From a virus (Duplodnaviria; Heunggongvirae; Uroviricota; Caudoviricetes), in the IMG/VR virus record IMGVR_UViG_3300027509_000001, positions 1 to 64,000 of that record: DNA of 64,000 bases; one strand, 5' to 3'. Each line of letters starts with the position of its first letter. Position 1 is the first letter of the stretch. The notes beneath the pieces were generated by a model that did not search any database, was not told the origin of the DNA, and worked only from the letters and a program-made list of their open reading frames with translations. A program made the position numbers and the translations under genes. Shown here in pieces: positions 4,839 through 63,958 of this stretch.

Positions 4839-4994
4839 ATGAAAATAGACAAAATAAAGCCAACCATAATAGTGGGCGAAGATACTTTTGACGTATTGGC
4901 TGCTTTAGATGTTCGAATTAAAGCTAAGATCGAACAGAACAAGAAACGGCTCTTTAACAGAAAGCGGACAAATCCAAAATATTTTAAAAATTGA
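4839..4994 (+). CDS. small hypothetical protein (51 aa)
   Basis: ATG at 4839 with a plausible N-terminus (MKIDKIKPTIIVGEDTFDV..); overlaps the track ORF at 4909..5124 in another frame, so only one of the two is likely real. Confidence 0.25.
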   Translation: MKIDKIKPTIIVGEDTFDVLAALDVRIKAKIEQNKKRLFNRKRTNPKYFKN

Positions 4995-5124
4995 TAACTT
5001 GAAGAAATTAATAATAACAATTGACACTGAAGCTTCTGTCCAACCAGCTTTTGCAAATACGTTGGAAAGTGATTATGATAAAGAGTTGCGAAAATTTATT
5101 GAATTATTAGAAATAAAGAAATAA
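4909..5124 (+). CDS. hypothetical protein
   Basis: 71-aa track ORF; ambiguous with the overlapping small ORF. Confidence 0.3.
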   Translation: MFELKLRSNRTRNGSLTESGQIQNILKIDNLKKLIITIDTEASVQPAFANTLESDYDKELRKFIELLEIKK

Positions 5125-8692: not shown

Positions 8693-9058
8693 ATGCCAAC
8701 ATCAACAATAATACCATTATTAGCCTTAAAGAGACCTATTTTAATTAAAACTGGTGGACATGCTGCTATCTACGAGGGTAGTTTACATGGAATTCATAAA
8801 GATTTATTGGATTTGTACACCGCGACATTGTCCAAATCTGACATTGAAAAAATACAAGATGTAGACGAAGATCTTAGTCCATTGATCGGCGCGCCAATGT
8901 TTTTAGGTTTTGCTGGACCTACATTATCAACATTTGACTCTGAAGAAGTTTGGGAATATAATATAAATCCCGATGTTAGAAACTTACATGCAGATTTTAA
9001 GGGAGAGAAAACATATTCAGAAATTATAAATATTTTATCTGAAGGACTATTAACTTGA
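8693..9058 (+). CDS. hypothetical protein
   Basis: 121-aa ORF. Confidence 0.45.
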   Translation: MPTSTIIPLLALKRPILIKTGGHAAIYEGSLHGIHKDLLDLYTATLSKSDIEKIQDVDEDLSPLIGAPMFLGFAGPTLSTFDSEEVWEYNINPDVRNLHADFKGEKTYSEIINILSEGLLT

Positions 9059-50071: not shown

Positions 50072-50522
50072 TGTCTAATAATTTGTTTCGTAATCGATTT
50101 AGTTTATATTGTTTATGAGGCATTATATCATCTATTAGATTTCCCATTTCTTCAACTTGGGATAACATAATCATGACATCTGCTAATTCTTCGCATAAAT
50201 TATCGTAAGTTTTGTTATTAGGACTTCTCCTATATTTCCTTATTGCCAATGCCAATTCTATACATTCTTCTTGAACCATATCCAATTGTTGGTCATGCCC
50301 CCATAATTCTACGGCGCCTGCGTATATTTGATCATCTGATATCTTTGTTAGTTTTTTTATTAATTCTTTATCTTTTAAAGCCCGATCAGTATAATCTCTT
50401 TCAATTGAATGGCCACATTTCCAACATGCTTTAAATCCATCTTCTGGTTTTGTTGATTTGCCTGTATCGTGGCCGCAGTTTTTGCAAGGCTGATACCATA
50501 CATCATAATCTCCTAATTTCAT
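50052..50522 (-). CDS. zinc-ribbon + MazG-like pyrophosphatase fusion
   Basis: N-terminal 'CKNCGHD..CWKCGH'; C-terminal 'VQEECIELALAI...LCEELADVMIML' (EExxE/E..D). Confidence 0.5.
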   Translation of the reverse strand: MKLGDYDVWYQPCKNCGHDTGKSTKPEDGFKACWKCGHSIERDYTDRALKDKELIKKLTKISDDQIYAGAVELWGHDQQLDMVQEECIELALAIRKYRRSPNNKTYDNLCEELADVMIMLSQVEEMGNLIDDIMPHKQYKLNRLRNKLLDNGWTFE

Positions 50523-51253
50523 ATTTCCATAATTAATTCGGTTAACAATGCCATTGCATTCAATTCCTTGTCAATGCATAAACTGTCTTGATATGCATAT
50601 TTCCCAATAACTAAAATAACTGGAGCGATTTTATTTGGAGCATATTGGTCTAGATTATTAAATAAGTAGGAATATAATTCATCAAAAGACCTAACTTTAC
50701 TATCTGCAACTATTTGTCTAATAGATTTAAATTTATCTTTTGGATTTTTATTAGATGCCAATTCGGTTACTACTTTTGAAAGATAATTACTTTCCATTCT
50801 AGTGGCTTCTGACAATGCTAGTTTACCACCAATTGAATTTGTTTGCAGTAAATTTATAACCAACCTAATGTCCGGATATCCTTGGTTTACAAGCGTAGCC
50901 AAATCTTGTTTATTGAATTCAACATTTTCTTCTTTAAGTATTTGCACCATTCGCAATGCTACTTCCTTTTTAGATGGAGGTATAACGTTAAAAGAAACAC
51001 ATCTAGATTGCAATGCTTCGATTATTTTCTCTACATAATTACATGTTAATATGAACCTACAATGCTTTGAAAAAGTTTCCATTACATTACGCAATGCCGC
51101 CTGGGCGTTGGGGGTTAGAAAATCACAATTGTGAGTTAACGTTTCATTTTGCCCGATATAGAAGTTATGATTTCCCTCTACAGATATATCGTATACGTGA
51201 CCAGTCTTATTTAATTTCTTTACGCTTTTTATTTTTATTTGTTCCAATTCCAT
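50519..51253 (-). CDS. C-intein segment fused to the C-terminal half of a gp44/RFC-like clamp-loader ATPase
   Basis: N-terminal 'GHVYDISVEGNHNFYIGQNETLTHN|C' (intein blocks F/G plus the +1 Cys), then sensor-1 'FILTCN' and 'SRC' RFC boxes. Confidence 0.65.
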   Translation of the reverse strand: MELEQIKIKSVKKLNKTGHVYDISVEGNHNFYIGQNETLTHNCDFLTPNAQAALRNVMETFSKHCRFILTCNYVEKIIEALQSRCVSFNVIPPSKKEVALRMVQILKEENVEFNKQDLATLVNQGYPDIRLVINLLQTNSIGGKLALSEATRMESNYLSKVVTELASNKNPKDKFKSIRQIVADSKVRSFDELYSYLFNNLDQYAPNKIAPVILVIGKYAYQDSLCIDKELNAMALLTELIMEI

Positions 51254-52235
51254 CGTATAATTTTTGAAGTTGTATTTTATTTTTTTCTAATTTAAAATCT
51301 GTTTCGTCAATATAATCAAGTATATTATATTCATTAACCCATATGAATTTTATATCATTGTCCTTGCAGTAATTTATGACAGATTGCATTTTATGTTTTT
51401 GCTTTTGCCATTGTGATTTTGGTTTTATTTCAAATAGTATATTCTTCTCTAGATCATGAAAATCTGCAATATATGTTCGGGACTTTCCATTTGCATCTAC
51501 ATATGGAATTCTTAATTTTTCATATAGCAAATGCTTATTTGAAGCCCAGAAACATGCCTCCCAAGAACTTCTAAATTTAAATTCGTTACCATCGAAATAT
51601 ATAATAGATGTCCAATGCGTCCAACTATTGCTAATAGGAGGAAAGAATTCTCCGTTTGCAATTTTCCTTTTCATTGTAATGCTATTTTTCAAAGCCACTT
51701 GCTTTAAATTTTCCTGCCCTTTTTCGGTTTTGTAAAATTCAGTCATTTTAATTGAGTTCTTTTTTCCGATCCGTTTAGCTACTTTGTTGCCTTCAGATGT
51801 TTTATAAAAATTCAATTTTGCTTTAGATATCTTATCTTTAGTTTCTTCACTTTGTGGTTTTCTGTTCCATGTTCGATTTTTAACACACTCTTTGCAATAT
51901 TTTCCTGTGAATCTACCTTCTCGATTACAAGAACATTTTTTAATAGTACCATGTTTTTTAACAAGTATTTTACATTCCTTACAGTATTTTGAATTCCAAG
52001 CATTTGCAGTATACCCGTTATTGCAATCTTCGCATATGTGCTCTTTGAAGTATACTACTCCGCCAAAATTATTTCTTTTTGCTGCAATTGACAATTTTCT
52101 TTTATATTCAAAAACTAGTTCATCGTATTGAACTTTACTAATGATTCCTGCCGCTAGTTTTTCTTTCCATATTACAAACGGTGATGTATTTTTTACCTGT
52201 ACTTTCATGTTTAATATATAGTTCTGCTTGAGCAA
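51207..52235 (-). CDS. free-standing homing-endonuclease-like gene between the intein halves
   Basis: Multiple zinc ribbons (CEDC..CKEC..CSC..CKEC), NUMOD-like K-rich repeats, C-terminal 'IADFHDLEKNILFEIKPK' (PD-(D/E)xK-like). Starts at TTG, in frame, 2 codons after the TAATAA that closes the N-intein ORF. Confidence 0.5.
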   Translation of the reverse strand: MLKQNYILNMKVQVKNTSPFVIWKEKLAAGIISKVQYDELVFEYKRKLSIAAKRNNFGGVVYFKEHICEDCNNGYTANAWNSKYCKECKILVKKHGTIKKCSCNREGRFTGKYCKECVKNRTWNRKPQSEETKDKISKAKLNFYKTSEGNKVAKRIGKKNSIKMTEFYKTEKGQENLKQVALKNSITMKRKIANGEFFPPISNSWTHWTSIIYFDGNEFKFRSSWEACFWASNKHLLYEKLRIPYVDANGKSRTYIADFHDLEKNILFEIKPKSQWQKQKHKMQSVINYCKDNDIKFIWVNEYNILDYIDETDFKLEKNKIQLQKLYDGIGTNKNKKRKEIK

Positions 52236-52241
52236 AACTTA

Positions 52242-52877
52242 TTAAATAATCGGTGTACCTGGAGAAATTATTGATTCATACGTATGCAATTCATCGGTCT
52301 TTACAACCTTTATTTCATTGTTCTCATCGTAAACATGCCATTTATGCTCAGCAGTACATTTCACTGTTTCTCCATTTTCTAATTCTATTTCCCATAATTC
52401 TTGTTCTCCTTTATCCCAAAAATAAAATGGTTGCCATTCGATTTGATTTGTTTTGAAGTTGTAACTTTTTACTAAGTCAGTTTCTTCTATTAATTCTTCA
52501 ATTGGAACCTTTATATAATTTCCCTCTCTGAGAATACTTACTAGCGTCCCTTCTAATAAACACTCATCAAGAATTATAACTTTCCAGTCATTAAATCCTA
52601 CATTCGAAGCAAATGTTTTTACCTTATTTCTAATAACTTCTACACTATTTTCATCTGAAGCATTAATATAAATGTGATCGCAATTAATTTCTGATACTAA
52701 AATTTTTGCGAGGGATGTTTTTCCAGTCCCAGAACTTGCATGTAGCAATAAATGTGGCATGTCATTATTATCAATATAATTTGCTATGGCCTTTTTAATA
52801 TCTTCGTTTCCAATATATTCAGACATTGTTTTTGGACGATAGCGTTCCGCCCATAACGAATTAGTTAATTTGTTCAT
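52242..52877 (-). CDS. N-terminal half of a gp44/RFC-like clamp-loader ATPase fused to an N-intein segment
   Basis: RFC box 'WAERYRPKT', Walker A 'ASSGTGKTS', Walker B 'VIILDE', then 'CLLEGTLVSIL' (intein block A) and 'CTAEHKWH' (block B), ending in TAATAA. Confidence 0.65.
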   Translation of the reverse strand: MNKLTNSLWAERYRPKTMSEYIGNEDIKKAIANYIDNNDMPHLLLHASSGTGKTSLAKILVSEINCDHIYINASDENSVEVIRNKVKTFASNVGFNDWKVIILDECLLEGTLVSILREGNYIKVPIEELIEETDLVKSYNFKTNQIEWQPFYFWDKGEQELWEIELENGETVKCTAEHKWHVYDENNEIKVVKTDELHTYESIISPGTPII

Positions 52878-56125: not shown

Positions 56126-56857
56126 TTATTGTTGTCCAGCTACTAAATAATATTTAGATCTAAAATCTTCTCCAGAAAATGTTGCTATTAACAATCCTTG
56201 AGAACTCAATGAAACCTTTCCTGTTTCTGCGTCTTTATTTGAGTTTAAAACGTCTAAAAATTGATTTCCATCAAATAACAATGTTTCAAAACCAGCAGGT
56301 GCTTCAACGTCTATTGGAATTTTAATGTTGTTTGTATTTGTTTTGGAATAATTAACAACTAACTCAATAGATCCATTGTTATTGGTAAAGGCTATAACAT
56401 CTGATTCAGCGATCGCCTTTTTAGCCTTAATATAGTTATCTGTAAAAATTGAGTTTACTTCAATTGTTACTTCTCCAGTTGGTATATCCTTTAATTCTGG
56501 TGGTGCTTTTATAACATCTAAATCTGACAATACAAATGTTACATTGAATTGATCGTCTTTTAATAGAATGTTAGCTTTTCTTCCTCCAACTTCTTGAACA
56601 GTAATGTTGAATTCATTTTGAAGGATCTTGATCATGTTTTCCAACTTAGTGGTTTCGTAAACACCGAATTCTCCTATTGGAAATTCAACATTCAAAACTT
56701 GGACGAAACCTAATAAACTCTTATCCTCAGTAATAAAAGACGTCGTTAATTTTGTTCCATCTGAAACCATTTTTATAGCATTATCAGGTCTTCCTGAAGC
56801 GTTTGCATCCAGATTATATTTCTGAATGAATTTTAAGATACTCGATTTATTTATCAT
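56126..56857 (-). CDS. sliding clamp (T4 gp45-like)
   Basis: 243 aa, sits next to the polymerase and clamp-loader genes, and resembles gp45 in overall composition; tentative. Confidence 0.4.
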   Translation of the reverse strand: MINKSSILKFIQKYNLDANASGRPDNAIKMVSDGTKLTTSFITEDKSLLGFVQVLNVEFPIGEFGVYETTKLENMIKILQNEFNITVQEVGGRKANILLKDDQFNVTFVLSDLDVIKAPPELKDIPTGEVTIEVNSIFTDNYIKAKKAIAESDVIAFTNNNGSIELVVNYSKTNTNNIKIPIDVEAPAGFETLLFDGNQFLDVLNSNKDAETGKVSLSSQGLLIATFSGEDFRSKYYLVAGQQ

Positions 56858-56877
56858 TTTTTTTAATTTTGAAGTGG

Positions 56878-56897
56878 CTTAAATATACGTAAAATAT
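56878..56897 (-). promoter_or_regulatory. promoter-like motif B copy
   Basis: 'cttaaatatacgtaaaatat' equals 24573-24592. Confidence 0.35.
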
Positions 56898-56929
56898 TTC
56901 ACATATCCAAATTTATCTGCATTTCCATT

Positions 56930-57844
56930 TTATTTTTTAAAATTGAAAAATTTATTAATTAATGCATTGAATTCTATATTACCAAAATCTAATGCATCCC
57001 AATAATTTTGGATTTTGTTTTCTAATCTGCTTTCAAATATTCTAACTCGGTCTGCATATGTTTCCATATATTCTAATATTTCTGGAGGATTGCTTTCTCT
57101 AGATATTGCAAACGAATCAAACTTCCATGGATTATCTATTAGATATGCCCACATAATTTTGTCTCCTTCTTTTATAGGAGGCATCGATGCTATACCTAAT
57201 TTATCCATTAAAGCATTGTGATTCAAAGCTGCTTTATAATGAACTGGCGTTCTTTTTTTAAACTCTCCAAATTTACCAGTTTTCCATTTGTCTAGGCTGT
57301 TAACTCCTACTGGTATTAATATGTCTGATAGCTTTTGTGTTGGCAATGATTGTTTGAAATCTCTTACCATTTCGTTTAATTCCTCTTTCGAAGAGTCATG
57401 TAATATACAATCTAATATCTTTTCAACAAATGATTTAAATTTTAATGGAAAATCTGCCCTGACTGAATCCAATCCCTTTACATCCATTTTGTTTTTAGCT
57501 ACACCTTCTTCGTCTACAATCCATTGAGCATAACGTTTTTTAGCTATCCATAATGCTCTTTTTGCAATTAATTCTTGCTTTATATCCCACCCGTGATCTG
57601 TTACATTATGCAACTTTAAAGCATATGTATCGTAACTTTTATTAATGTAAGATTGGACATCATTGATTATTGGTTTTGATAATGCAATAATTTCTTCATC
57701 AGTATAGTTATCCATAGGTCCATGGCGATGCACAAATAATGGTTCTATTGGTTCGAATATGCTGTCCGTATCAGTATATATACAAAAATTATAATATGTA
57801 TTATGTTGATTATCAGCTAGTTGTGTTATATTTTTAATTTTCAT
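56930..57844 (-). CDS. family-B DNA polymerase, C-terminal part (43B-like)
   Basis: Motif C 'IYTDTDS' (YGDTDS) and the 'KKRYA' KKRY motif. Confidence 0.7.
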   Translation of the reverse strand: MKIKNITQLADNQHNTYYNFCIYTDTDSIFEPIEPLFVHRHGPMDNYTDEEIIALSKPIINDVQSYINKSYDTYALKLHNVTDHGWDIKQELIAKRALWIAKKRYAQWIVDEEGVAKNKMDVKGLDSVRADFPLKFKSFVEKILDCILHDSSKEELNEMVRDFKQSLPTQKLSDILIPVGVNSLDKWKTGKFGEFKKRTPVHYKAALNHNALMDKLGIASMPPIKEGDKIMWAYLIDNPWKFDSFAISRESNPPEILEYMETYADRVRIFESRLENKIQNYWDALDFGNIEFNALINKFFNFKK

Positions 57845-58673
57845 TTTCCAAATAATTTAAACATTTTCTTAGTACCTTTAATGGATTTTCTTTGTAATCT
57901 ATGTAATTTACCCTCAATATAGTAAATCCAAATGAATTTGTTAATTCGTCTCTGAATTTATCTTTTTCTGGGTCGTGCCAGTATTTGCAATCAAATTCTA
58001 TTATCTTGTCTCCCAATAAAAAATCGAATTTGTAATATCTGCCATTTGTTACCAATTTATATTCTCCATAATTTTCTGCAAATAAGGCCTCGTCTTTCTT
58101 TGCCGGGGGCAAAAATTCGTATATATTCCAAAATAACTCCTGAGATATATTGCTATAATTTCCAAACTTATTGGCTTCAATTCGATTTTCATCTTTATAA
58201 TATTCATAATCATCACTTGTCCAGTTATATTCAGACATTATAAATTCCCTAAATGATTTATATTCTGAAATACGCTCATGAGGTTGTTTAATTTTTGGTC
58301 CATTATTAAAATTATTGTTGATACGTGTTTGTCGAAGTGCTTTCTTTATTTTATTTTTATTAAACTGATCAAATTCTTTTTTAGTCATTCCATGTTGCTG
58401 AGACATATATTCAAAGCTATTTGTTTCTGCCTGACGATTACAATAAATTTGCCAACGATGCTGTCCTTTTTCAACACCATATCGCTTTATCATATTTTCA
58501 AGTGTCTGCTTTCTCTTAGCAGTAATTGATGGATGTTCTAAAACTGCGCCTGGGAATTTTGCTGAATACGATTTAAACGTCATATCATGTTTATGTTTCA
58601 GGTGAGTGGTTGATATTCGTTTATACCAATTTAAACATTCTAAGCATTGGATTCTATTTGTGTCATCATTCAT
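57834..58673 (-). CDS. zinc-finger + PD-(D/E)xK-like endonuclease (homing-endonuclease-like) in the polB insertion
   Basis: N-terminal 'CLECLNWYKRISTTHLKHKH' (same finger type as the tRNA-array genes); C-terminal 'KFDFLLGDKIIEFDCKYWHD'. Confidence 0.45.
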   Translation of the reverse strand: MNDDTNRIQCLECLNWYKRISTTHLKHKHDMTFKSYSAKFPGAVLEHPSITAKRKQTLENMIKRYGVEKGQHRWQIYCNRQAETNSFEYMSQQHGMTKKEFDQFNKNKIKKALRQTRINNNFNNGPKIKQPHERISEYKSFREFIMSEYNWTSDDYEYYKDENRIEANKFGNYSNISQELFWNIYEFLPPAKKDEALFAENYGEYKLVTNGRYYKFDFLLGDKIIEFDCKYWHDPEKDKFRDELTNSFGFTILRVNYIDYKENPLKVLRKCLNYLENEN

Positions 58674-58727
58674 TATACTGATACCTTTATATATAAGTAG
58701 TGTCTGTGTATCTTTTTAATAACTTTT

Positions 58728-58982
58728 CTAGTTTAAAACATTACTCAAAAAATACCCTGTTACTGTCCCTAAGGCTGCGCCTGCTGCATATATTACTCTT
58801 TCTAATCTGTTTGCAGCCTTAACGCTGGTAACGTTTAATGTCCAATTATAAGATAATAGAAATGATGATATTGTCATTCCAACTAAGTTAGAATTGGCAA
58901 TATATACGATATTAACAACGACTAGAAGAACTTGAATAAATGCGCCAATAAATAATTTGAAATATGCTTTAGATTTACTCAT
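58728..58982 (-). CDS. small membrane protein
   Basis: 84 aa with two TM segments. Confidence 0.35.
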   Translation of the reverse strand: MSKSKAYFKLFIGAFIQVLLVVVNIVYIANSNLVGMTISSFLLSYNWTLNVTSVKAANRLERVIYAAGAALGTVTGYFLSNVLN

Positions 58983-59137
58983 TCTTTAGATTGACATAAT
59001 TAATAAGTGCTTCTCTTGCTATCAAAGGATCAATCTTAAATAACATATCGGTCGAATCGTAAGTTAATGCATAATCGATAAGATTAGTTGCTATTTTTAA
59101 ATCGTTGATTTCTCCTTCTTTGATATTTCTTAATTGT

Positions 59138-59470
59138 TTAACTGTTAGTCCCATTGTCTTTTATTTTATAGTCATATGATAAATCCTCTTCTTTTATGCT
59201 ACCTGGAATTTCCATGTCATTGTAATTATACATTATTTCAAATAATATTTTTAAATCCCTTTCAGGTTGTTCAAAAAAGTTATGCTGAATTGGTTCAAGT
59301 TTAAAATAATCATTTTCCAATGCATAATAATCTTGAAAATCCATGGCATGTTTGTACTTAAGATGAGTTATTGTTATTTTTTTAAATACTTCTCCGCATA
59401 TTAAACATTCACGATATCGTCTTGAAATATTCGAAAATATATTTTCCTTCATGCTTATCAAATCCATCAT
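59138..59470 (-). CDS. zinc-finger protein (HEG-associated finger only)
   Basis: 'CLICGEVFKKITITHLKYKH'. Confidence 0.4.
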   Translation of the reverse strand: MMDLISMKENIFSNISRRYRECLICGEVFKKITITHLKYKHAMDFQDYYALENDYFKLEPIQHNFFEQPERDLKILFEIMYNYNDMEIPGSIKEEDLSYDYKIKDNGTNS

Positions 59471-60474
59471 GCTAATTTTACTTTTATATTTTTATAATTC
59501 TTATTGAAAATATACATTGATATCGAATGTAGTTCTATATATTCTTTAATTGAATTATAAATCTTACCTGTTTCTAGGCATTTCAACTTGGTATAATTGC
59601 CTCCAGTACCATCTAGATGTCGAAGTTTCATTCTATCAGCTGATATTTTAGCTAAGCGTTTAAGTTCTTTCTTTGATTTATTCTTTTTACTATTACTTAT
59701 CTTTTGTTTATGCCCTTTAGTTAATACCTTTCCCCTAAATGCGTCTCCTATCTTTTTTCTTCGTTTGGATTCGGTAATTGGGTCTACTATTCTATTTAAT
59801 TGAGCTTCTGACATTCGTTGTATTTGTTTTTTTGTGTATACTCCAGTTCTTCCTTTGTTCCATGGAATTTGACCAATATGAGAATCTGATAATTTTTTTC
59901 TGTGTTCGCTGCTTTTCATTTTAGTTAAAAATTTATCGTGCCACCCATCAACGTTATCTTTTCTACTTTGTATTACACTTTTACTGATTTTCTGTCGTGT
60001 TTTTTGTGTCTTTGGCTTATTACAATACCTTTTGAAAGCAGTAGAATTTTTTAAGCTATTGGATATTAATAATTTGGTTTTATTTGATACCTTTCTTCCT
60101 GTACGAACTTCACTTAATAACTGCCTATACTCGATTGAGTTGTACATTGAATTTGGATCTGCCCATAACGCCTTTACCGCTTCACTTATTTTTTTATTTA
60201 CTATGGGCCCTAAATTTCCGCCATTTCCACCAGACGAAATATTATATTCTGGTTTATACAAGTCTATATAAAATATTTCATAATAATCGGCTTCTTCTCG
60301 TGTATCAACATTAATTACTATTTCCTTTTTAAAAGATTCCAGGCCATATTTATGTATCGCCAATTTTATTAATTTACCTGAACCATAATAGTTTATAGAG
60401 TCTTCAGGTGCCTTAGAAGATTGCCCTATATAGATTTTACCATTAATTTTATTTGTTATTTTGTAGATGTACAT
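59467..60474 (-). CDS. GIY-YIG homing endonuclease
   Basis: 'MYIYKITNKINGKIYIGQS' (GIY...YIG) plus a basic NUMOD-like C-terminal DNA-binding region. Confidence 0.7.
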   Translation of the reverse strand: MYIYKITNKINGKIYIGQSSKAPEDSINYYGSGKLIKLAIHKYGLESFKKEIVINVDTREEADYYEIFYIDLYKPEYNISSGGNGGNLGPIVNKKISEAVKALWADPNSMYNSIEYRQLLSEVRTGRKVSNKTKLLISNSLKNSTAFKRYCNKPKTQKTRQKISKSVIQSRKDNVDGWHDKFLTKMKSSEHRKKLSDSHIGQIPWNKGRTGVYTKKQIQRMSEAQLNRIVDPITESKRRKKIGDAFRGKVLTKGHKQKISNSKKNKSKKELKRLAKISADRMKLRHLDGTGGNYTKLKCLETGKIYNSIKEYIELHSISMYIFNKNYKNIKVKLA

Positions 60475-60509
60475 TTTGAGATATTTCCTGTCGTTGTCAT
60501 AAAAACTAA

Positions 60510-62336
60510 TTATATATGCTTGACAAGTTCAAATACATATTTTTGTACACCCTCCACTTCTATTTTATCAAATCCATTTTTTTTCACTTTGCTGCCATCT
60601 TCAAATTCTATTTCATACATGTTATTATATTCTTTTAGCTCTTTATTGTAAAATCGATTCCCCATTCTTGTTGCCCAATTAATTACACTGACTCCGGTAA
60701 GTGTCACGCCTTCGCCATTATCTTTATCGTAAAATCTGAAGCTTGGTAATAACAATACTCCATATAATGAATTCAATAGGATTTTTGTTACCAATTGCTT
60801 CTTGTCATAATATTTTTCTTGTACAGAATCTTTTAACTTACCATATTTCTTTTTAAGATCCTTGTACCCCTTTCTTTCATCAAACCATGCCAATAATACC
60901 GATGGAATTAGTCCCTTTTTATCTAATTTATACATGACACCATTTGATGCAATTGATAAATTATTTTCTGTCAAATACTGATGCACTTCCTTTGAACCAT
61001 CTAGAGTTTTATGAATGTCAGTAGCTTCCGTTTGAGCGAAAAATGCTGTTGGAGATTCGTCATTAAAAAATGTCAGTGTATACATTTTATTTGCGTTTTT
61101 CGCATACTCTTCTTCATCCCAATTTTCAATTTTTCCAAATTTAGTTTCTGGAGATATATTTAGAGATATAATATTGAAAGGGTACAGCGAAGTCAAATCC
61201 AAGTCGTAGACCCATGTATACAATCCTGGTGTTGGTTCTTTAACAAAGGCTCCTTTAGCTTTACCTTTCGATTGACTGACATTTGAACTTGCAACTAAAT
61301 TATTTCTTCGTAAATACGTTAACAATGAACCCTCTAGATACTTGCTCGTATAAATAATATCTTCATATGGAACATGGCCTTTATGGCATATACCCAATGC
61401 AATATCAATATAATCTAATTTTTGATCCATCGACACTAATAATTCTACATCAATAATACCATACGCAATAAATGACATTAAGTCATCTCTAAATAATTGA
61501 TCTAGATTTCCCGAGTATTCAATTTTACCTCTAGATAGTTCCTTTTTGGCAATAGAATCTAATTTATAACTAGACTCTTCTGAATACCCGAATTTCTTAT
61601 ATAACATTAAATAATCAAGTTGAGATACACCTGATATTTTGATTGTTAACCGATTCGAATATTTGTTTGTATTCCTACGAACTTTTCCTATTGGGCTTAA
61701 TAAATTTGCATAATTATAATCTAATATATTAACAGTTCTATTGTATAGGTATGGGATATCATAGTAGTCTAAATTCCACCCGGATATAATAGTTGGGTTT
61801 ATCTTTCTAAATTCCTTTAAAAAATACGCTAGCATTTTCGTTTCATCCGAAAATATTATCAATTCTACATTGCATATTATTTCAGTCTTTGGAATCTTAA
61901 CTTGAACATTTTTTCTTTGTGGAGTCTCTGCTTCGTCAAGAAGTAACATTGTATATTCATTCGATCCCTTTACGCAATATTGTATTCCAAAGATTTCGTT
62001 TGCTGCATCTTCTACGCTTGAATATTTTTCGTTTTTACGGACTTCTATATCCATAAATAATATTGTATTGTCAGCTATGTCATCACTTTCCGAATATAGG
62101 TCTATTAAAGTTCTAGTGGTTGGAGATACATTATGTTCAAACACCATGTTCATTTGCTCGGCAGTTTCGGACCACGAATCAACTTTTGTCACTCGCTGTC
62201 CTTCAATTGTTAATAACTCTCCGTTGGCATCTGGAACATATGCATATGATTCGTATGGAAATTTTTTATAACCAAGTTTATCATCCCACAGGTGAATAAT
62301 TTCGTCGTTTCTATCGTATTGAATGTTAGTATACAA
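60510..62336 (-). CDS. family-B DNA polymerase, N-terminal part (exonuclease and palm up to motif B; 43A-like)
   Basis: Motif B 'KILLNSLYG'; the ORF stops ~85 aa after motif B; motif C is in the downstream ORF at 56930..57844. Confidence 0.7.
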   Translation of the reverse strand: MYTNIQYDRNDEIIHLWDDKLGYKKFPYESYAYVPDANGELLTIEGQRVTKVDSWSETAEQMNMVFEHNVSPTTRTLIDLYSESDDIADNTILFMDIEVRKNEKYSSVEDAANEIFGIQYCVKGSNEYTMLLLDEAETPQRKNVQVKIPKTEIICNVELIIFSDETKMLAYFLKEFRKINPTIISGWNLDYYDIPYLYNRTVNILDYNYANLLSPIGKVRRNTNKYSNRLTIKISGVSQLDYLMLYKKFGYSEESSYKLDSIAKKELSRGKIEYSGNLDQLFRDDLMSFIAYGIIDVELLVSMDQKLDYIDIALGICHKGHVPYEDIIYTSKYLEGSLLTYLRRNNLVASSNVSQSKGKAKGAFVKEPTPGLYTWVYDLDLTSLYPFNIISLNISPETKFGKIENWDEEEYAKNANKMYTLTFFNDESPTAFFAQTEATDIHKTLDGSKEVHQYLTENNLSIASNGVMYKLDKKGLIPSVLLAWFDERKGYKDLKKKYGKLKDSVQEKYYDKKQLVTKILLNSLYGVLLLPSFRFYDKDNGEGVTLTGVSVINWATRMGNRFYNKELKEYNNMYEIEFEDGSKVKKNGFDKIEVEGVQKYVFELVKHI

Positions 62337-62365
62337 ATTTTAAGTTTTATTTTTTTTTAATAGGC

Positions 62366-62521
62366 AGTCCATGTCTTTCCACATGTATCACATTTGTAAA
62401 TACAATTTTTACCACTAGCGAGCAATACGCCCCAGTCAACATGTCCGAAAACACATGGACCATATTTTTGTAGCATCCATCTTCTATATTTCTCTATATA
62501 TTTTCTCATCATCCGAAAAAT
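62366..62521 (-). CDS. small zinc-ribbon protein (51 aa)
   Basis: MMRKYIEKY...CVFGH...CIYKCDTCGK; preceded by 'AATTTTTCGG'. Confidence 0.3.
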
Positions 62522-62523
62522 TT

Positions 62524-62694
62524 TAATAAACGCCAGATTGTGTACAATTGTGATATTTCTTGTTCAGCTTTTGGATTCCATTGTTAGGAAAATATCCATA
62601 ATCCATAAAGGGTAGTTTATAACCATACGACCACTGTATATGATGAATACGATGAATAAATGTTAAATATTGGGCTAGTCTTTTAATTTTCATC
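62524..62694 (-). CDS. small hypothetical protein (56 aa)
   Basis: ATG preceded by the same 'AATTTTTTCGG' leader as its neighbour. Confidence 0.3.
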
Positions 62695-63958
62695 CGAAAA
62701 AATTATGTTCTTTTAATTTGAATTCTTCTCCTACATTATCTAATTTAGTAAACAATTTTAAATTATCTTCGTATATAGATTTTGCACTATCTCCATTCAA
62801 TGGAGCTTTTACCATTTGGTCTATTACCATCATTAATTTATATAAGTCTGGCCCTGTTACTTGTTCTAAAATATATGGATGCAAGTCCATAAAGTTTTCT
62901 ACTTGGTCCATTGCATCTTTAAAAACAAATAAATTATGAGCTTGAATTGCAGCCCAACCTTGAATTGTCCATTCTGCCATATCCTTGCCGGTATATAACC
63001 TTTCTAATGTATCGTCGAACTTAGTTGTCTTTGGCAGTTTGAAAAATTCTCCTGGTTGTAGATTCGACGTTGTATGAATTCCCTTATCATTCTTAACACT
63101 CTTACCAGTAATCTTCGGGATGTGTACAACTTTGAAATTCAATTTCTTCCAGTCCGCTGCGACATAACATGTGCCATATAAAATCGATCTAGATGGCGAT
63201 GAACTATCTGTTGTCACCTGCATAGGAGATCCTATTTCATTCAATGACTTTTGCATCTGCGAGAATACAAAGAAATCTGTAATTTTTGAAGCCCCTAGGA
63301 AATGCAAATAATGGTTTCTATCCATTAACTGTTCTTTGTTCTCAAAGAGTACTGCTAAAGATACCATTATATTACTAATCTTTCCAGCACCTCCAATTCC
63401 CCATCCGTTAAATCCAAAGTCTTTTACTTGTCTGTACCACTCAGCGTATGAAGAATATTCAGAACCCTGTAATACATTTAAAAACTTAGTTGAACCAGAT
63501 TGATTCTCGTCAAAGTACTTAAAGTTAATTAACGATTCGTCAAGTGCTTCTTGAAATTTTCCTTCCCATTGCATTCGAGGTGGTATATCCAAATTCATTG
63601 CAATGTGCGAATTACCTTCTAACCAAGAAAACATTGTTTCTCGTAGCATCTTTTTCTTTTCACCTACATACTTAACGGCTCCTGATGCAATTTGGAATCC
63701 ACCCGAATCGCCTATTGTTAATACGCCAGGTTCTAACAATCCCATTTCTTGCGATATAGTTGGCTTCTTGTAATAATGACCACCAGTAATTAGATAATAT
63801 GGATGCCTATACCCATCTGGATAATTGGCGTCATAAAAACGCATGGTGGATTTCTCCGGGTCGTTCCATGTCTCCTTGCGATGCATTGCTGCTGCTACGT
63901 TTCCGACAGAAAATGATGGAAAGTAGATATATTTTCTATCCTTGTATTGCTGCTTCAA
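62690..63958 (-). CDS. dpdA: tRNA-guanine-transglycosylase-family protein, DpdA-like (DNA 7-deazaguanine transglycosylase)
   Basis: The TGT catalytic motif 'VLTIGDSGGFQIASG' ('DSGGFQ'); TIM-barrel-sized; no C-terminal zinc site seen; the annotated start is TTG, so the true start is uncertain. Confidence 0.55.
   Translation of the reverse strand: MKQQYKDRKYIYFPSFSVGNVAAAMHRKETWNDPEKSTMRFYDANYPDGYRHPYYLITGGHYYKKPTISQEMGLLEPGVLTIGDSGGFQIASGAVKYVGEKKKMLRETMFSWLEGNSHIAMNLDIPPRMQWEGKFQEALDESLINFKYFDENQSGSTKFLNVLQGSEYSSYAEWYRQVKDFGFNGWGIGGAGKISNIMVSLAVLFENKEQLMDRNHYLHFLGASKITDFFVFSQMQKSLNEIGSPMQVTTDSSSPSRSILYGTCYVAADWKKLNFKVVHIPKITGKSVKNDKGIHTTSNLQPGEFFKLPKTTKFDDTLERLYTGKDMAEWTIQGWAAIQAHNLFVFKDAMDQVENFMDLHPYILEQVTGPDLYKLMMVIDQMVKAPLNGDSAKSIYEDNLKLFTKLDNVGEEFKLKEHNFFG

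What the first reader, a model, noticed from the sequence alone, without database searches (positions are those of the whole stretch)
56930..62336. Family-B DNA polymerase split between motif B and motif C by a 2.6-kb homing-endonuclease island
Motif B (KILLNSLYG) sits in the 608-aa ORF 60510..62336 and motif C (YTDTDS) plus KKRY sit in ORF 56930..57844. The intervening 2.6 kb carries a GIY-YIG endonuclease, a zinc-finger ORF, a small membrane ORF and a zinc-finger/PD-(D/E)xK-like ORF. No intein blocks flank the junctions, so this looks like a two-cistron 43A/43B-type polymerase, as reported in some Aeromonas T4-like phages, or a large intron. The island is the largest I can infer for such a split.
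Basis: partly seen in the sequence, partly recalled or inferred. Interest (0 to 1): 0.7.

Follow-up and report, generated by a model that had tools for sequence, protein, structure and literature searches.

The report
Two-piece phage DNA polymerase gene
A T4-like phage encodes its replicative DNA polymerase as two separate proteins with a cluster of selfish nuclease genes between them, and the extra peptide on the first half looks like a leftover piece of a protein-splicing element that may now help hold the two halves together.

Summary
ORF 60510..62336(-) carries the exonuclease domain and motifs A and B. ORF 56930..57844(-) carries motif C and KKRY. Five tightly packed ORFs lie between them.

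It is not an intron: Rfam finds nothing, and relatives have the same split with no spacer. It is not a working intein either, because the nucleophiles, TxxH and terminal HN are absent.

It is a two-subunit PolB. The break lies about 10 residues before DTDS. That is a different site from Aeromonas 43A/43B, which breaks in the fingers before motif B.

The split is widespread in uncultured T4-like phages. It always comes with a roughly 40-aa acidic tail on the N-half and a basic "MKIKxI" leader on the C-half.

The tail is as conserved as the enzyme body. It is homologous to the last ~46 residues of the N-fragment of the split intein that sits at DTD|S in sister polymerases (hhalign E 1e-6).

The gap between the halves holds anything from nothing to 3.3 kb of homing-endonuclease genes, so this island is not the largest.

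Best reading: a decayed "fractured gene" cassette whose intein relic probably serves as an assembly peptide. That last step is inferred; AlphaFold gave no confident structure for it.

This is a new variant of a known kind.

The parts
60510..62336 (-). PolB N-terminal subunit, 608 aa: N-terminal and exonuclease domains, palm motif A, fingers with motif B, and a 41-aa C-terminal tail.
   Evidence: An identical protein (P0275) is on 3 contigs.
60513..60635 (-). Tail of the N-half (residues 568-608, KEYNNMYEIEFEDGSKVKKNGFDKIEVEGVQKYVFELVKHI). It is absent from intact polymerases, acidic, and a relic of the C-terminal third of a split-intein N-fragment.
   Evidence: Absent in Mel-JY01. Conserved in 37 N-halves. 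hhalign against N-inteins gives E 1.1e-6 with controls. A tail HMM built without the window sequence hits this ORF at 2.4e-13, and the only other included hit in the window is the clamp-loader N-intein. Tail identity is 0.52 against 0.54 for the body.
59467..60474 (-). Free-standing GIY-YIG + NUMOD3 homing-endonuclease gene, 335 aa, starting 35 nt after the N-half stop codon.
   Evidence: Pfam GIY-YIG 32.7 bits (cut-off 22.6) and NUMOD3 30.3 bits (cut-off 20.4). PHROG 314 homing endonuclease 9.8e-37. 53% identical to the ORF at the same position in L004 and L008.
59138..59470 (-). 110-aa ORF with a CxxC...HxxxH zinc finger (weakly Ros/MucR-like). Probably a nuclease-less copy of the DNA-binding head of the 279-aa ORF.
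   Evidence: Pfam ROS_MUCR 0.0026, below cut-off. Residues 21-50 are 50% identical to residues 9-38 of the 279-aa ORF.
58975..59154 (-). 59-aa ORF of unknown function, overlapping both neighbours.
   Evidence: No family hit.
58728..58982 (-). 84-aa hydrophobic, membrane-like ORF.
   Evidence: PHROG 6764 (unknown function) 3.2e-11.
57834..58673 (-). 279-aa zinc-finger + Vsr/DUF559-like (PD-(D/E)xK) putative homing endonuclease. Its last 11 nt overlap the start of the C-half.
   Evidence: Pfam ROS_MUCR 6e-5 and DUF559 0.0048, both below cut-off. The N-terminal 110 aa are 58% identical to L004_259, whose nuclease domain is different. The C-terminus resembles L008_495.
57791..57844 (-). Leader of the C-half (MKIKNITQLADNQHNTYY). 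It is absent from intact polymerases, and its basic 'MKIKxI' start is conserved.
   Evidence: The first 10 residues are positively charged in 18 of 18 leaders. The resemblance to the first strand of C-inteins is by eye only.
56930..57844 (-). PolB C-terminal subunit, 304 aa: palm motif C (YTDTDS), KKRY and the thumb.
   Evidence: An identical protein (P0001) is on 4 contigs.

Best explanation
The phage makes its replicative family-B polymerase from two polypeptides. One is 608 aa (exonuclease, motif A, fingers with motif B). The other is 304 aa (motif C, KKRY, thumb). They assemble non-covalently. The break lies in the loop between the helix that leaves the fingers and the strand that carries DTDS, equivalent to about RB69 residues 608-614.

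The break is part of a cassette of four elements: (i) a roughly 40-aa acidic tail plus stop codon, (ii) zero to several free-standing endonuclease genes and small ORFs, (iii) a start codon, and (iv) a basic MKIKxI leader. The tail descends from the C-terminal third of a split-intein N-fragment. The leader may descend from the first strand of the C-fragment. All catalytic parts of the intein are gone, so no protein splicing occurs.

I infer that the remaining oppositely charged peptides dock the two subunits, as the 'capture' step of split-intein assembly does. I also infer that the intercistronic gap is a safe landing pad where homing endonucleases accumulate. In this window these are a GIY-YIG enzyme and a zinc-finger/Vsr-like enzyme.

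Expression of the C-half most likely depends on read-through transcription of the island and on translational coupling, because its start overlaps the end of the 279-aa ORF by 11 nt.

Shown: the split, its site, the conservation and origin of the tail, the variable island, and the absence of an intron or a working intein. Inferred: assembly through the tail and leader, endonuclease activity and mobility.
For: - The two halves are complementary and every catalytic motif is intact. The model of the joined halves has pLDDT 89.8 and matches RB69 gp43 at TM 0.8.
- The same break is found in many phages. C-halves of 300-317 aa starting MKIK appear. Thirty-seven N-halves end in the tail.
- The split persists with no island at all: L006 has TAG followed directly by ATG, L019 has an ATGA overlap, L015 has a 1-nt spacer, and L010 has adjoining halves.
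- Island content varies among relatives. The GIY-YIG ORF is shared at 53% identity.
- The tail is as conserved as the enzyme, 0.52 against 0.54 identity.
- The tail profile matches the last 46 columns of the N-intein profile at E 1.1e-6 and score 36.9. The best of 100 column shuffles scored 16.9.
- A tail HMM picks out only the PolB tail and the genuine clamp-loader N-intein among the window's 875 ORFs.
- Tails are negatively charged in 36 of 37 cases (mean -4.3). Leaders are positively charged in 18 of 18 (mean +3.4 over the first 10 residues).
- Tail-type N-halves and leader-type C-halves occurred together in all 9 loci examined.
- There is no terminator-like site on the minus strand across the region, and the ORFs overlap one another.
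- Precedents: split gp43 of Aeromonas phages is active (PMC2988022). The tails of split Aeh1 NrdA are essential (PMC3045599). Split-intein fragments associate by electrostatic capture (PMC11766414).
Against: - AlphaFold2 gave pLDDT below 50 for residues 573-575 and 583-623, which cover the tail and leader. There is therefore no structural support for a docked module. The alignment for that region was shallow and unpaired.
- The leader's similarity to C-inteins is not statistically significant.
- The window's own tail and leader carry weaker charges (-2 and +1) than the family average.
- The tail site is about 10 residues upstream of the DTD|S site of the related intein. No simple deletion converts one into the other.
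- For Aeh1 NrdA, the tails were not needed for heterodimer formation itself (section heading).
- No activity, transcript or protein data exist for this phage.
- The catalytic Arg of the GIY-YIG domain is not evident by eye.
Confidence: 0.8

Rival explanations
1. The tail and leader are inert by-products of the insertion event. The two halves assemble only through the native palm interface, as engineered split polymerases do.
For: AF2 gives no confident structure for the tail and leader. An accidental split in the Pfu fingers gives an active enzyme (PMC3061061). The Aeh1 NrdA tails were not required for heterodimer formation.
Against: The tail is as conserved as the catalytic domains. It is retained across polymerases only 40-55% identical, including loci that have lost every endonuclease gene. 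Tail and leader charges are consistently opposite.
Confidence: 0.2
2. The 2.6 kb is a large group I or group II intron, and splicing yields one contiguous polymerase mRNA.
For: Phage polymerase genes do carry group I introns, for example 43B of Aeromonas phage 25.
Against: No intron family matches at E<=10. The region is filled by five overlapping ORFs. The N-half ends in a conserved translated tail and a stop codon. Relatives keep the split with a spacer of a few bases at most.
Confidence: 0.02
3. The tail and leader form a minimal, atypical split intein that still trans-splices the two halves.
For: The tail is Hint-derived. Some tails begin with Cys and most leaders are followed by Ser. In this window the leader happens to contain 'HN|T'.
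Against: Together they total about 55 residues, against at least 125 for a Hint fold. Block B TxxH and blocks F and G are absent. Cys1 is N or M in this window. The HN is not conserved: relatives have RIT|S, VPK|S and RII|S. Pfam finds no intein.
Confidence: 0.03
4. The polymerase gene was inactivated by endonuclease invasion, and the phage relies on another polymerase.
For: None specific.
Against: All exonuclease and polymerase motifs are intact. Both halves are conserved across many phages. The model is confident. The gene sits in the conserved replication module next to the sliding clamp and clamp loader.
Confidence: 0.02

Closest known systems
Split gene 43 (43A/43B) of Aeromonas salmonicida phages 25 and 44RR (Petrov, Ratnayaka and Karam 2010, cited in PMC2988022)
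   Same: A T4-type PolB encoded by two adjacent cistrons. A free-standing GIY-YIG-type endonuclease gene lies between them in phage 25. The two products co-purify and are active.
   Different: The break point differs. The Aeromonas split is in the fingers, upstream of motif B: 43A is 498 aa and 43B contains KILINSLYG. Here it is downstream of motif B, about 10 residues before DTDS. Here there is also a conserved intein-related tail and a basic leader, a multi-gene island, and a wide, patchy distribution.
'Fractured genes': split intein plus free-standing homing endonuclease (Dassa et al. 2009, PMC2677866)
   Same: The layout is the same: N-part, then a GIY-YIG or Vsr-like endonuclease gene, then C-part, in replication genes of environmental phages. 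The clamp-loader gene of this same window is a true example. Sister polymerases carry a real split intein at DTD|S.
   Different: The intein here is reduced to about 40 + 18 residues with no catalytic residues, so the halves cannot be ligated. It sits about 10 residues upstream of the DTD|S intein site.
Aeh1 NrdA-a/NrdA-b, split by the mobE endonuclease, with essential tails (Crona et al. 2011, PMC3045599)
   Same: An essential enzyme is fragmented by a free-standing endonuclease. Unique C- and N-terminal tails created by the insertion act as interaction elements.
   Different: A different enzyme and a different endonuclease family (HNH). The origin of those tails is unknown, whereas here the tail can be traced to an intein fragment. 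The role of the tail here is untested.
Split PolB of Methanobacteriales (Kelman et al. 1999) and the split-intein PolB of Nanoarchaeum equitans
   Same: Family-B polymerases encoded by two genes. Makarova et al. 2014 (PMC4104785) proposed that the Methanobacteriales split arose from faulty intein loss.
   Different: These are archaeal and the genes are not adjacent in N. equitans. I did not compare their break points or look for intein relics in them.

Membership tests
Aeromonas-type split gp43 (43A/43B) | T4-type PolB encoded by two adjacent same-strand cistrons | tested here: met
Aeromonas-type split gp43 (43A/43B) | Break in the fingers domain upstream of motif B, so that motif B lies in 43B | tested here: not met
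   Phage 25 43A aligns to window residues up to about 494, and 43B begins before KILINSLYG. In the window motif B is in the N-half.
Aeromonas-type split gp43 (43A/43B) | The two polypeptides form an active polymerase complex | not testable with these tools
   Only indirect support: intact motifs and a confident joint model.
Fractured gene (split intein + free-standing HEG) | Host gene in two adjacent ORFs with a GIY-YIG or Vsr-like endonuclease ORF between them | tested here: met
Fractured gene (split intein + free-standing HEG) | Complete split intein: Cys/Ser1, block B TxxH, block F, block G HN plus a +1 nucleophile | tested here: not met
   No intein family in Pfam. The residues are absent or not conserved. 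Only the last ~46 N-intein positions are recognisable.
Hint/intein superfamily (tail only) | Significant profile similarity to bona fide inteins | tested here: met
   hhalign E 1.1e-6 with shuffle and reversal controls. The tail HMM hits the clamp-loader N-intein at 2.6e-4 among 875 ORFs. The match covers only part of the fold.
Group I / group II intron | Conserved catalytic RNA core | tested here: not met
   Rfam scan at E<=10 on both strands, 56500-62800, returned only three chance-level miRNA/lncRNA matches.
HEG-fragmented enzyme with assembly tails (Aeh1 NrdA type) | C- and N-terminal extensions at the break that intact homologues lack | tested here: met
   41 aa and 18 aa against a 5-aa linker in Mel-JY01 and 'GTKDK' in P0002
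HEG-fragmented enzyme with assembly tails (Aeh1 NrdA type) | The tails are needed for assembly or activity | tested here: inconclusive
   In favour: conservation and charge complementarity. Not in favour: AF2 pLDDT below 50. This needs an experiment.
GIY-YIG homing endonuclease (335-aa ORF) | GIY-YIG catalytic domain plus a NUMOD-type DNA-binding region | tested here: met
   Pfam hits above cut-off. PHROG 314 at 9.8e-37.
GIY-YIG homing endonuclease (335-aa ORF) | Site-specific cleavage of the endonuclease-free allele, and homing | not testable with these tools
   Only the patchy distribution of the cassette hints at mobility.
Vsr-like / DUF559 homing endonuclease (279-aa ORF) | PD-(D/E)xK Vsr-type nuclease domain | tested here: inconclusive
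   DUF559 scores 17.2 bits against a cut-off of 20.6. No PDB sequence match. The motif is visible by eye.

The most novel reading that the evidence does not exclude
The tail-endonuclease-leader unit is a mobile cassette descended from a split intein that has lost protein splicing altogether. It persists because its two remaining fragments, the acidic end of the N-intein and the basic first strand of the C-intein, still perform the 'capture' step and so act as a natural non-covalent heterodimerisation tag for an essential enzyme. That would be a missing intermediate in the gene-breaking model, between a fractured gene with a working intein and a plain multi-subunit enzyme. It would also be a sequence-level precedent for the proposed intein origin of split archaeal PolB.
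Probability: 0.4. Interest if true: 0.75.

Novelty: new variant of a known kind. Interest (0 to 1): 0.58.

Why it matters
Split phage polymerases, endonuclease-fractured genes and assembly tails are each documented. What this locus and its relatives add:

1. A second split site in T4-type PolB, distinct from the Aeromonas one. It lies right beside the catalytic DTDS and is common in uncultured phages, including a published 484-kb phage genome.
2. A traceable origin of the extra peptide in an intein fragment.
3. A natural series at one site, running from an intact gene, through a working split intein, a relic with endonucleases and a relic alone.

If the relic peptides do mediate assembly, they show how an essential gene can survive the death of its intein. 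They could also supply small orthogonal dimerisation tags.

For annotation, the practical point is that such halves are routinely called as separate or truncated 'DNA polymerase' genes.

Tried and rejected
- **Megablast of the region against phage genomes:** no match.
- **Viral-contig scan with N-half peptides:** nothing confirmed.
- **Word-indexed protein search with only the last 129 aa of the N-half:** 4 fragments, uninformative.
- **Pfam on isolated tails:** no intein, only chance hits.
- **Leader against C-intein by hhalign and by HMM:** the only significant stretch was the shared extein. In the concatenated profile the alignment ran across the junction but added no score. The leader HMM is too short to find even its own ORF with confidence.
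- **Clamp-loader N-intein as hhalign template (2 sequences):** a weak, non-colinear match at E 0.0013, which I attribute to the internal symmetry of the Hint fold.
- **AlphaFold2 of the joined halves:** no confident tail/leader structure.
- **PDB sequence search with the 279-aa ORF:** nothing.
- **'HN|T' in the window's leader as a splice junction:** rejected, because it is not conserved in relatives.
- **Deriving the tail-type split from the DTD|S split intein by simple deletion:** rejected, because motif C lies on opposite sides of the break in the two types.
- **Literature searches for an earlier description of this split site or of intein relics in phage PolB:** none found in the held library. 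This is not proof of absence.
Full report
**1. The observation**

The 608-aa ORF 60510..62336 matches Pfam DNA_pol_B_exo1 (1.9e-21) and the first 206 positions of DNA_pol_B (2.2e-20). The 304-aa ORF 56930..57844 matches positions 265-410 of the same model. Against solved structures, the N-half aligns with RB69 gp43 up to residue 607, including KILLNSLYG against KLLINSLYG.

Against the closest cultured-phage polymerase, the intact 848-aa PolB of Microcystis phage Mel-JY01, the N-half covers residues 1-552 and the C-half covers 558-848. The two ORFs are therefore complementary pieces of one enzyme.

Each piece also has an extension that the intact enzyme lacks. The N-half has 41 extra residues at its end (the 'tail'). 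The C-half has 18 extra residues at its start (the 'leader').

An AlphaFold2 model of the two pieces joined end to end is confident (pLDDT 89.8, pTM 0.85). Its best structural matches are RB69 gp43 entries at TM 0.79-0.80.

The break corresponds to about RB69 608-614. This is the loop before the strand that carries DTDS. The RB69 motif C numbering is from my own knowledge.

**2. The island**

Five ORFs fill 57845-60509 with short overlaps or gaps.

| ORF | Size | Evidence |
|---|---|---|
| 59467..60474 | 335 aa | GIY-YIG + NUMOD3; Pfam above cut-off; PHROG homing endonuclease 1e-36 |
| 59138..59470 | 110 aa | Zinc-finger ORF |
| 58728..58982 | 84 aa | Hydrophobic, membrane-like |
| 57834..58673 | 279 aa | Zinc finger plus weak DUF559/Vsr-like C-terminus, below the Pfam cut-off |

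The 279-aa ORF overlaps the ATG of the C-half by 11 nt. No terminator-like site lies on the minus strand. Base composition shows no sharp boundary.

**3. Not an intron and not a working intein**

An Rfam scan at E<=10 on both strands found only three chance-level matches and no group I or II intron.

Relatives are more decisive, because they keep exactly the same break with no room for an intron:
- L006 has the N-half stop TAG followed immediately by ATG, in the same frame.
- L019 has an ATGA overlap.
- L015 has a 1-nt spacer.
- L010 has adjoining halves.

The tail and leader lack the residues a splicing intein needs. Position 1 is Cys in some relatives but N or M here. There is no TxxH and no block F or G. 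The 'HN|T' in this window's leader is not conserved: relatives have RIT|S, VPK|S and RII|S. Pfam finds no intein domain.

**4. The split is a family trait with a variable filling**

A protein search with the C-half returned many proteins of 300-317 aa that start 'MKIKxI...'. Searches with the N-half returned 37 proteins that end in a related tail. The two tail subtypes are:
- this window's type, 'YEIEfEDGs.k..HGFD.v.t..GkKYVF.LtE.DEli*';
- a second type, 'YEIELEDGt.....v.V.RnG....i.a.eL.etDEII*'.

Tail-type N-halves and leader-type C-halves occurred together in all nine loci I could inspect.

| Locus | Content of the gap |
|---|---|
| L006, L015, L019, L010 | Nothing |
| L016, L018, contig of P0006 | One endonuclease gene |
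| L008 | GIY-YIG gene plus a 60-aa membrane ORF |
| This window | Five ORFs, 2.6 kb |
| L004 | Five ORFs, 3.3 kb |
| L002 = LR756508, a published 484-kb uncultured phage | Four unrelated ORFs, 3.0 kb |

This island is therefore not the largest. The literature already mentions gaps of 2-3000 bases for split gp43 (PMC2677866).

The GIY-YIG ORF is shared by the window, L004 and L008 at 53% identity, about as diverged as the polymerase itself. The 279-aa ORF shares its first 110 residues (58% identity) with L004's 259-aa ORF but carries a different nuclease domain.

In a neighbour-joining tree of 220 N-terminal parts, the window sits in a pure clade of ten tail-type genes. Other tail-type genes are scattered among intact and intein-bearing ones. 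This suggests that the cassette moves or is often lost. The tree is crude, so I treat this as indicative only.

**5. Not the Aeromonas 43A/43B site**

In Aeromonas phage 25, 43A is 498 aa and aligns with the window's N-half only up to about residue 494. 43B starts upstream of KILINSLYG. That split is in the fingers, before motif B. The one here is after motif B, next to motif C. The mechanism is analogous: two subunits with an endonuclease gene between them, and the Aeromonas enzyme is active (PMC2988022). Because the site differs, I take it to be an independent event.

**6. Origin of the tail**

Sister polymerases in the same family carry a genuine Ser1/Ser+1 split intein at DTD|S (L012, P0129, P0152 and others). 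This is the site of the characterised PolB16 split intein (PMC10189870).

- A profile of 37 tails aligns colinearly with the last 46 of 121 columns of a profile of 20 such N-inteins. That region runs from the strand carrying block B to the natural split point. Probability is 91%, E 1.1e-6, score 36.9.
- One hundred column shuffles of the tail alignment scored at most 16.9 (mean 8.7, sd 1.9). The reversed alignment scored 18.4.
- A tail HMM built without the window's sequence was run unfiltered against all 875 ORFs of at least 30 aa in the window. It found the PolB tail (2.4e-13) and, as the only other included hit, the N-part of the window's clamp-loader gene. That gene carries a real Cys1 split intein (2.6e-4).
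- One contiguous polymerase (P0167) has a tail-like segment inserted in frame at the same place.

The tail is therefore a Hint-fold relic.

The leader resembles the first strand of C-inteins by eye: MKIKSIKSL against IKIKSVKKL of the clamp-loader C-intein and EIESIDDLG of the PolB C-intein. It is too short for any test to reach significance.

**7. Likely function of the relic (inferred)**

- Among 18 N-halves of this window's type, the tail is as conserved as the enzyme body (0.52 against 0.54 mean pairwise identity). It is therefore translated and under constraint.
- Tails are acidic (mean charge -4.3; 36 of 37 negative). The first ten residues of leaders are basic (mean +3.4; 18 of 18 positive).
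- Split-intein fragments first associate through electrostatic contacts between oppositely charged disordered segments ('capture and collapse'; PMC11766414).
- In split Aeh1 NrdA, insertion-derived tails are essential for activity (PMC3045599).

I therefore think the tail and leader help dock the two subunits. Against this, AlphaFold2 gave pLDDT below 50 for residues 573-575 and 583-623, and this window's own charges are modest (-2 and +1). I give the assembly role about even odds.

**8. Comparison with what is known, and novelty**

The closest known systems are the Aeromonas split gp43, the 'fractured genes' of Dassa et al., the Aeh1 NrdA tails, and split archaeal PolB. For the last of these, an origin by faulty intein loss has been proposed (PMC4104785).

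The locus fails a defining test for membership of the first two: the break site for Aeromonas gp43, and the catalytic intein blocks for fractured genes. It works like a combination of them.

I found no description of this split site or of an intein relic in phage PolB in the held literature. That search is limited. I rate the finding a new variant of a known kind.

**9. Verdict**

- Two-subunit polymerase with an endonuclease island in the gap: confidence about 0.8.
- Intein origin of the tail: about 0.7.
- Assembly role of the tail and leader: about 0.5.
- Interest: 0.58.

Noticed in passing
L015:6985-7030; L016:~8880-8910 (L017 is the same phage); L018:~4990-5030; L019:5109-5139; L020:1271-1301(-): In five independent relatives, the C-half ORF with a normal MKIK leader runs into an in-frame TGA inside motif C (...TAC ACC GAC ACN TGA CN...), and the rest of the gene continues in the +2 frame. 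The context is always Thr codon, TG, Thr codon: ACG/ACG, ACG/ACA, ACC/ACC, ACC/ACT. Skipping 5 nt restores a perfect YTDTDS. This is a candidate programmed +5 ribosomal hop over a stop codon, reminiscent of the T4 gene 60 bypass. It might protect the site from the neighbouring endonuclease. It is not present in this window, and there were no matches in IMG/VR.
   Followed up: partly
window 50519..52877 (-): The clamp-loader (gp44/RFC-like) gene of this phage is a true 'fractured gene'. The N-part 52242..52877 ends in a Cys1 N-intein (CLLEGT...CTAEHKW...). A 333-342-aa ORF at 51207..52235 has a weak TnsA-like endonuclease hit. The C-part 50519..51253 starts with a C-intein (...NHNFYIG...THN|C). 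Relative L012 has the same arrangement.
   Followed up: partly
L002 (GenBank LR756508.1, 259363-267288): This published, unannotated 484-kb uncultured phage has the same tail/leader split with a 3-kb island. It also has an intein inside motif B (KILIN|C...) and another inside motif C (YTD|S...HN|TDS). That makes three interruptions of one polymerase gene.
   Followed up: partly
window 57834..58673 and 59138..59470; L004:7225-8004; L008:12839-14326: The endonucleases are modular. The window's 279-aa ORF and L004's 259-aa ORF share a zinc-finger DNA-binding head (58% identity) but have unrelated nuclease domains. The window's 110-aa ORF looks like a nuclease-less copy of that head.
   Followed up: partly
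window 62690..63958 and upstream; L003:1-3155: The polymerase lies within a set of 7-deazaguanine/queuosine-type genes on the contig (QueC, PTPS, and GTP cyclohydrolase I in relatives). A conserved 400-420-aa ORF with no family hit lies just upstream of the polymerase in every relative. This suggests modified DNA.
   Followed up: no
P0167 (918 aa, metagenomic): This contiguous polymerase carries an in-frame insertion of about 80 aa at the same site. The first part of the insertion resembles the tail (…KNEHVMMADGTSKMGCDLVSGDETVDGII…). It may be a fused, non-splicing intein relic.
   Followed up: no
window 59467..60474: The GIY-YIG ORF and its two orthologues have 'Y(Y/L)GSGK' where I-TevI has its catalytic Arg27 region. 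I judged this by eye and from memory of the I-TevI sequence. I did not establish whether the enzyme is active.
   Followed up: no
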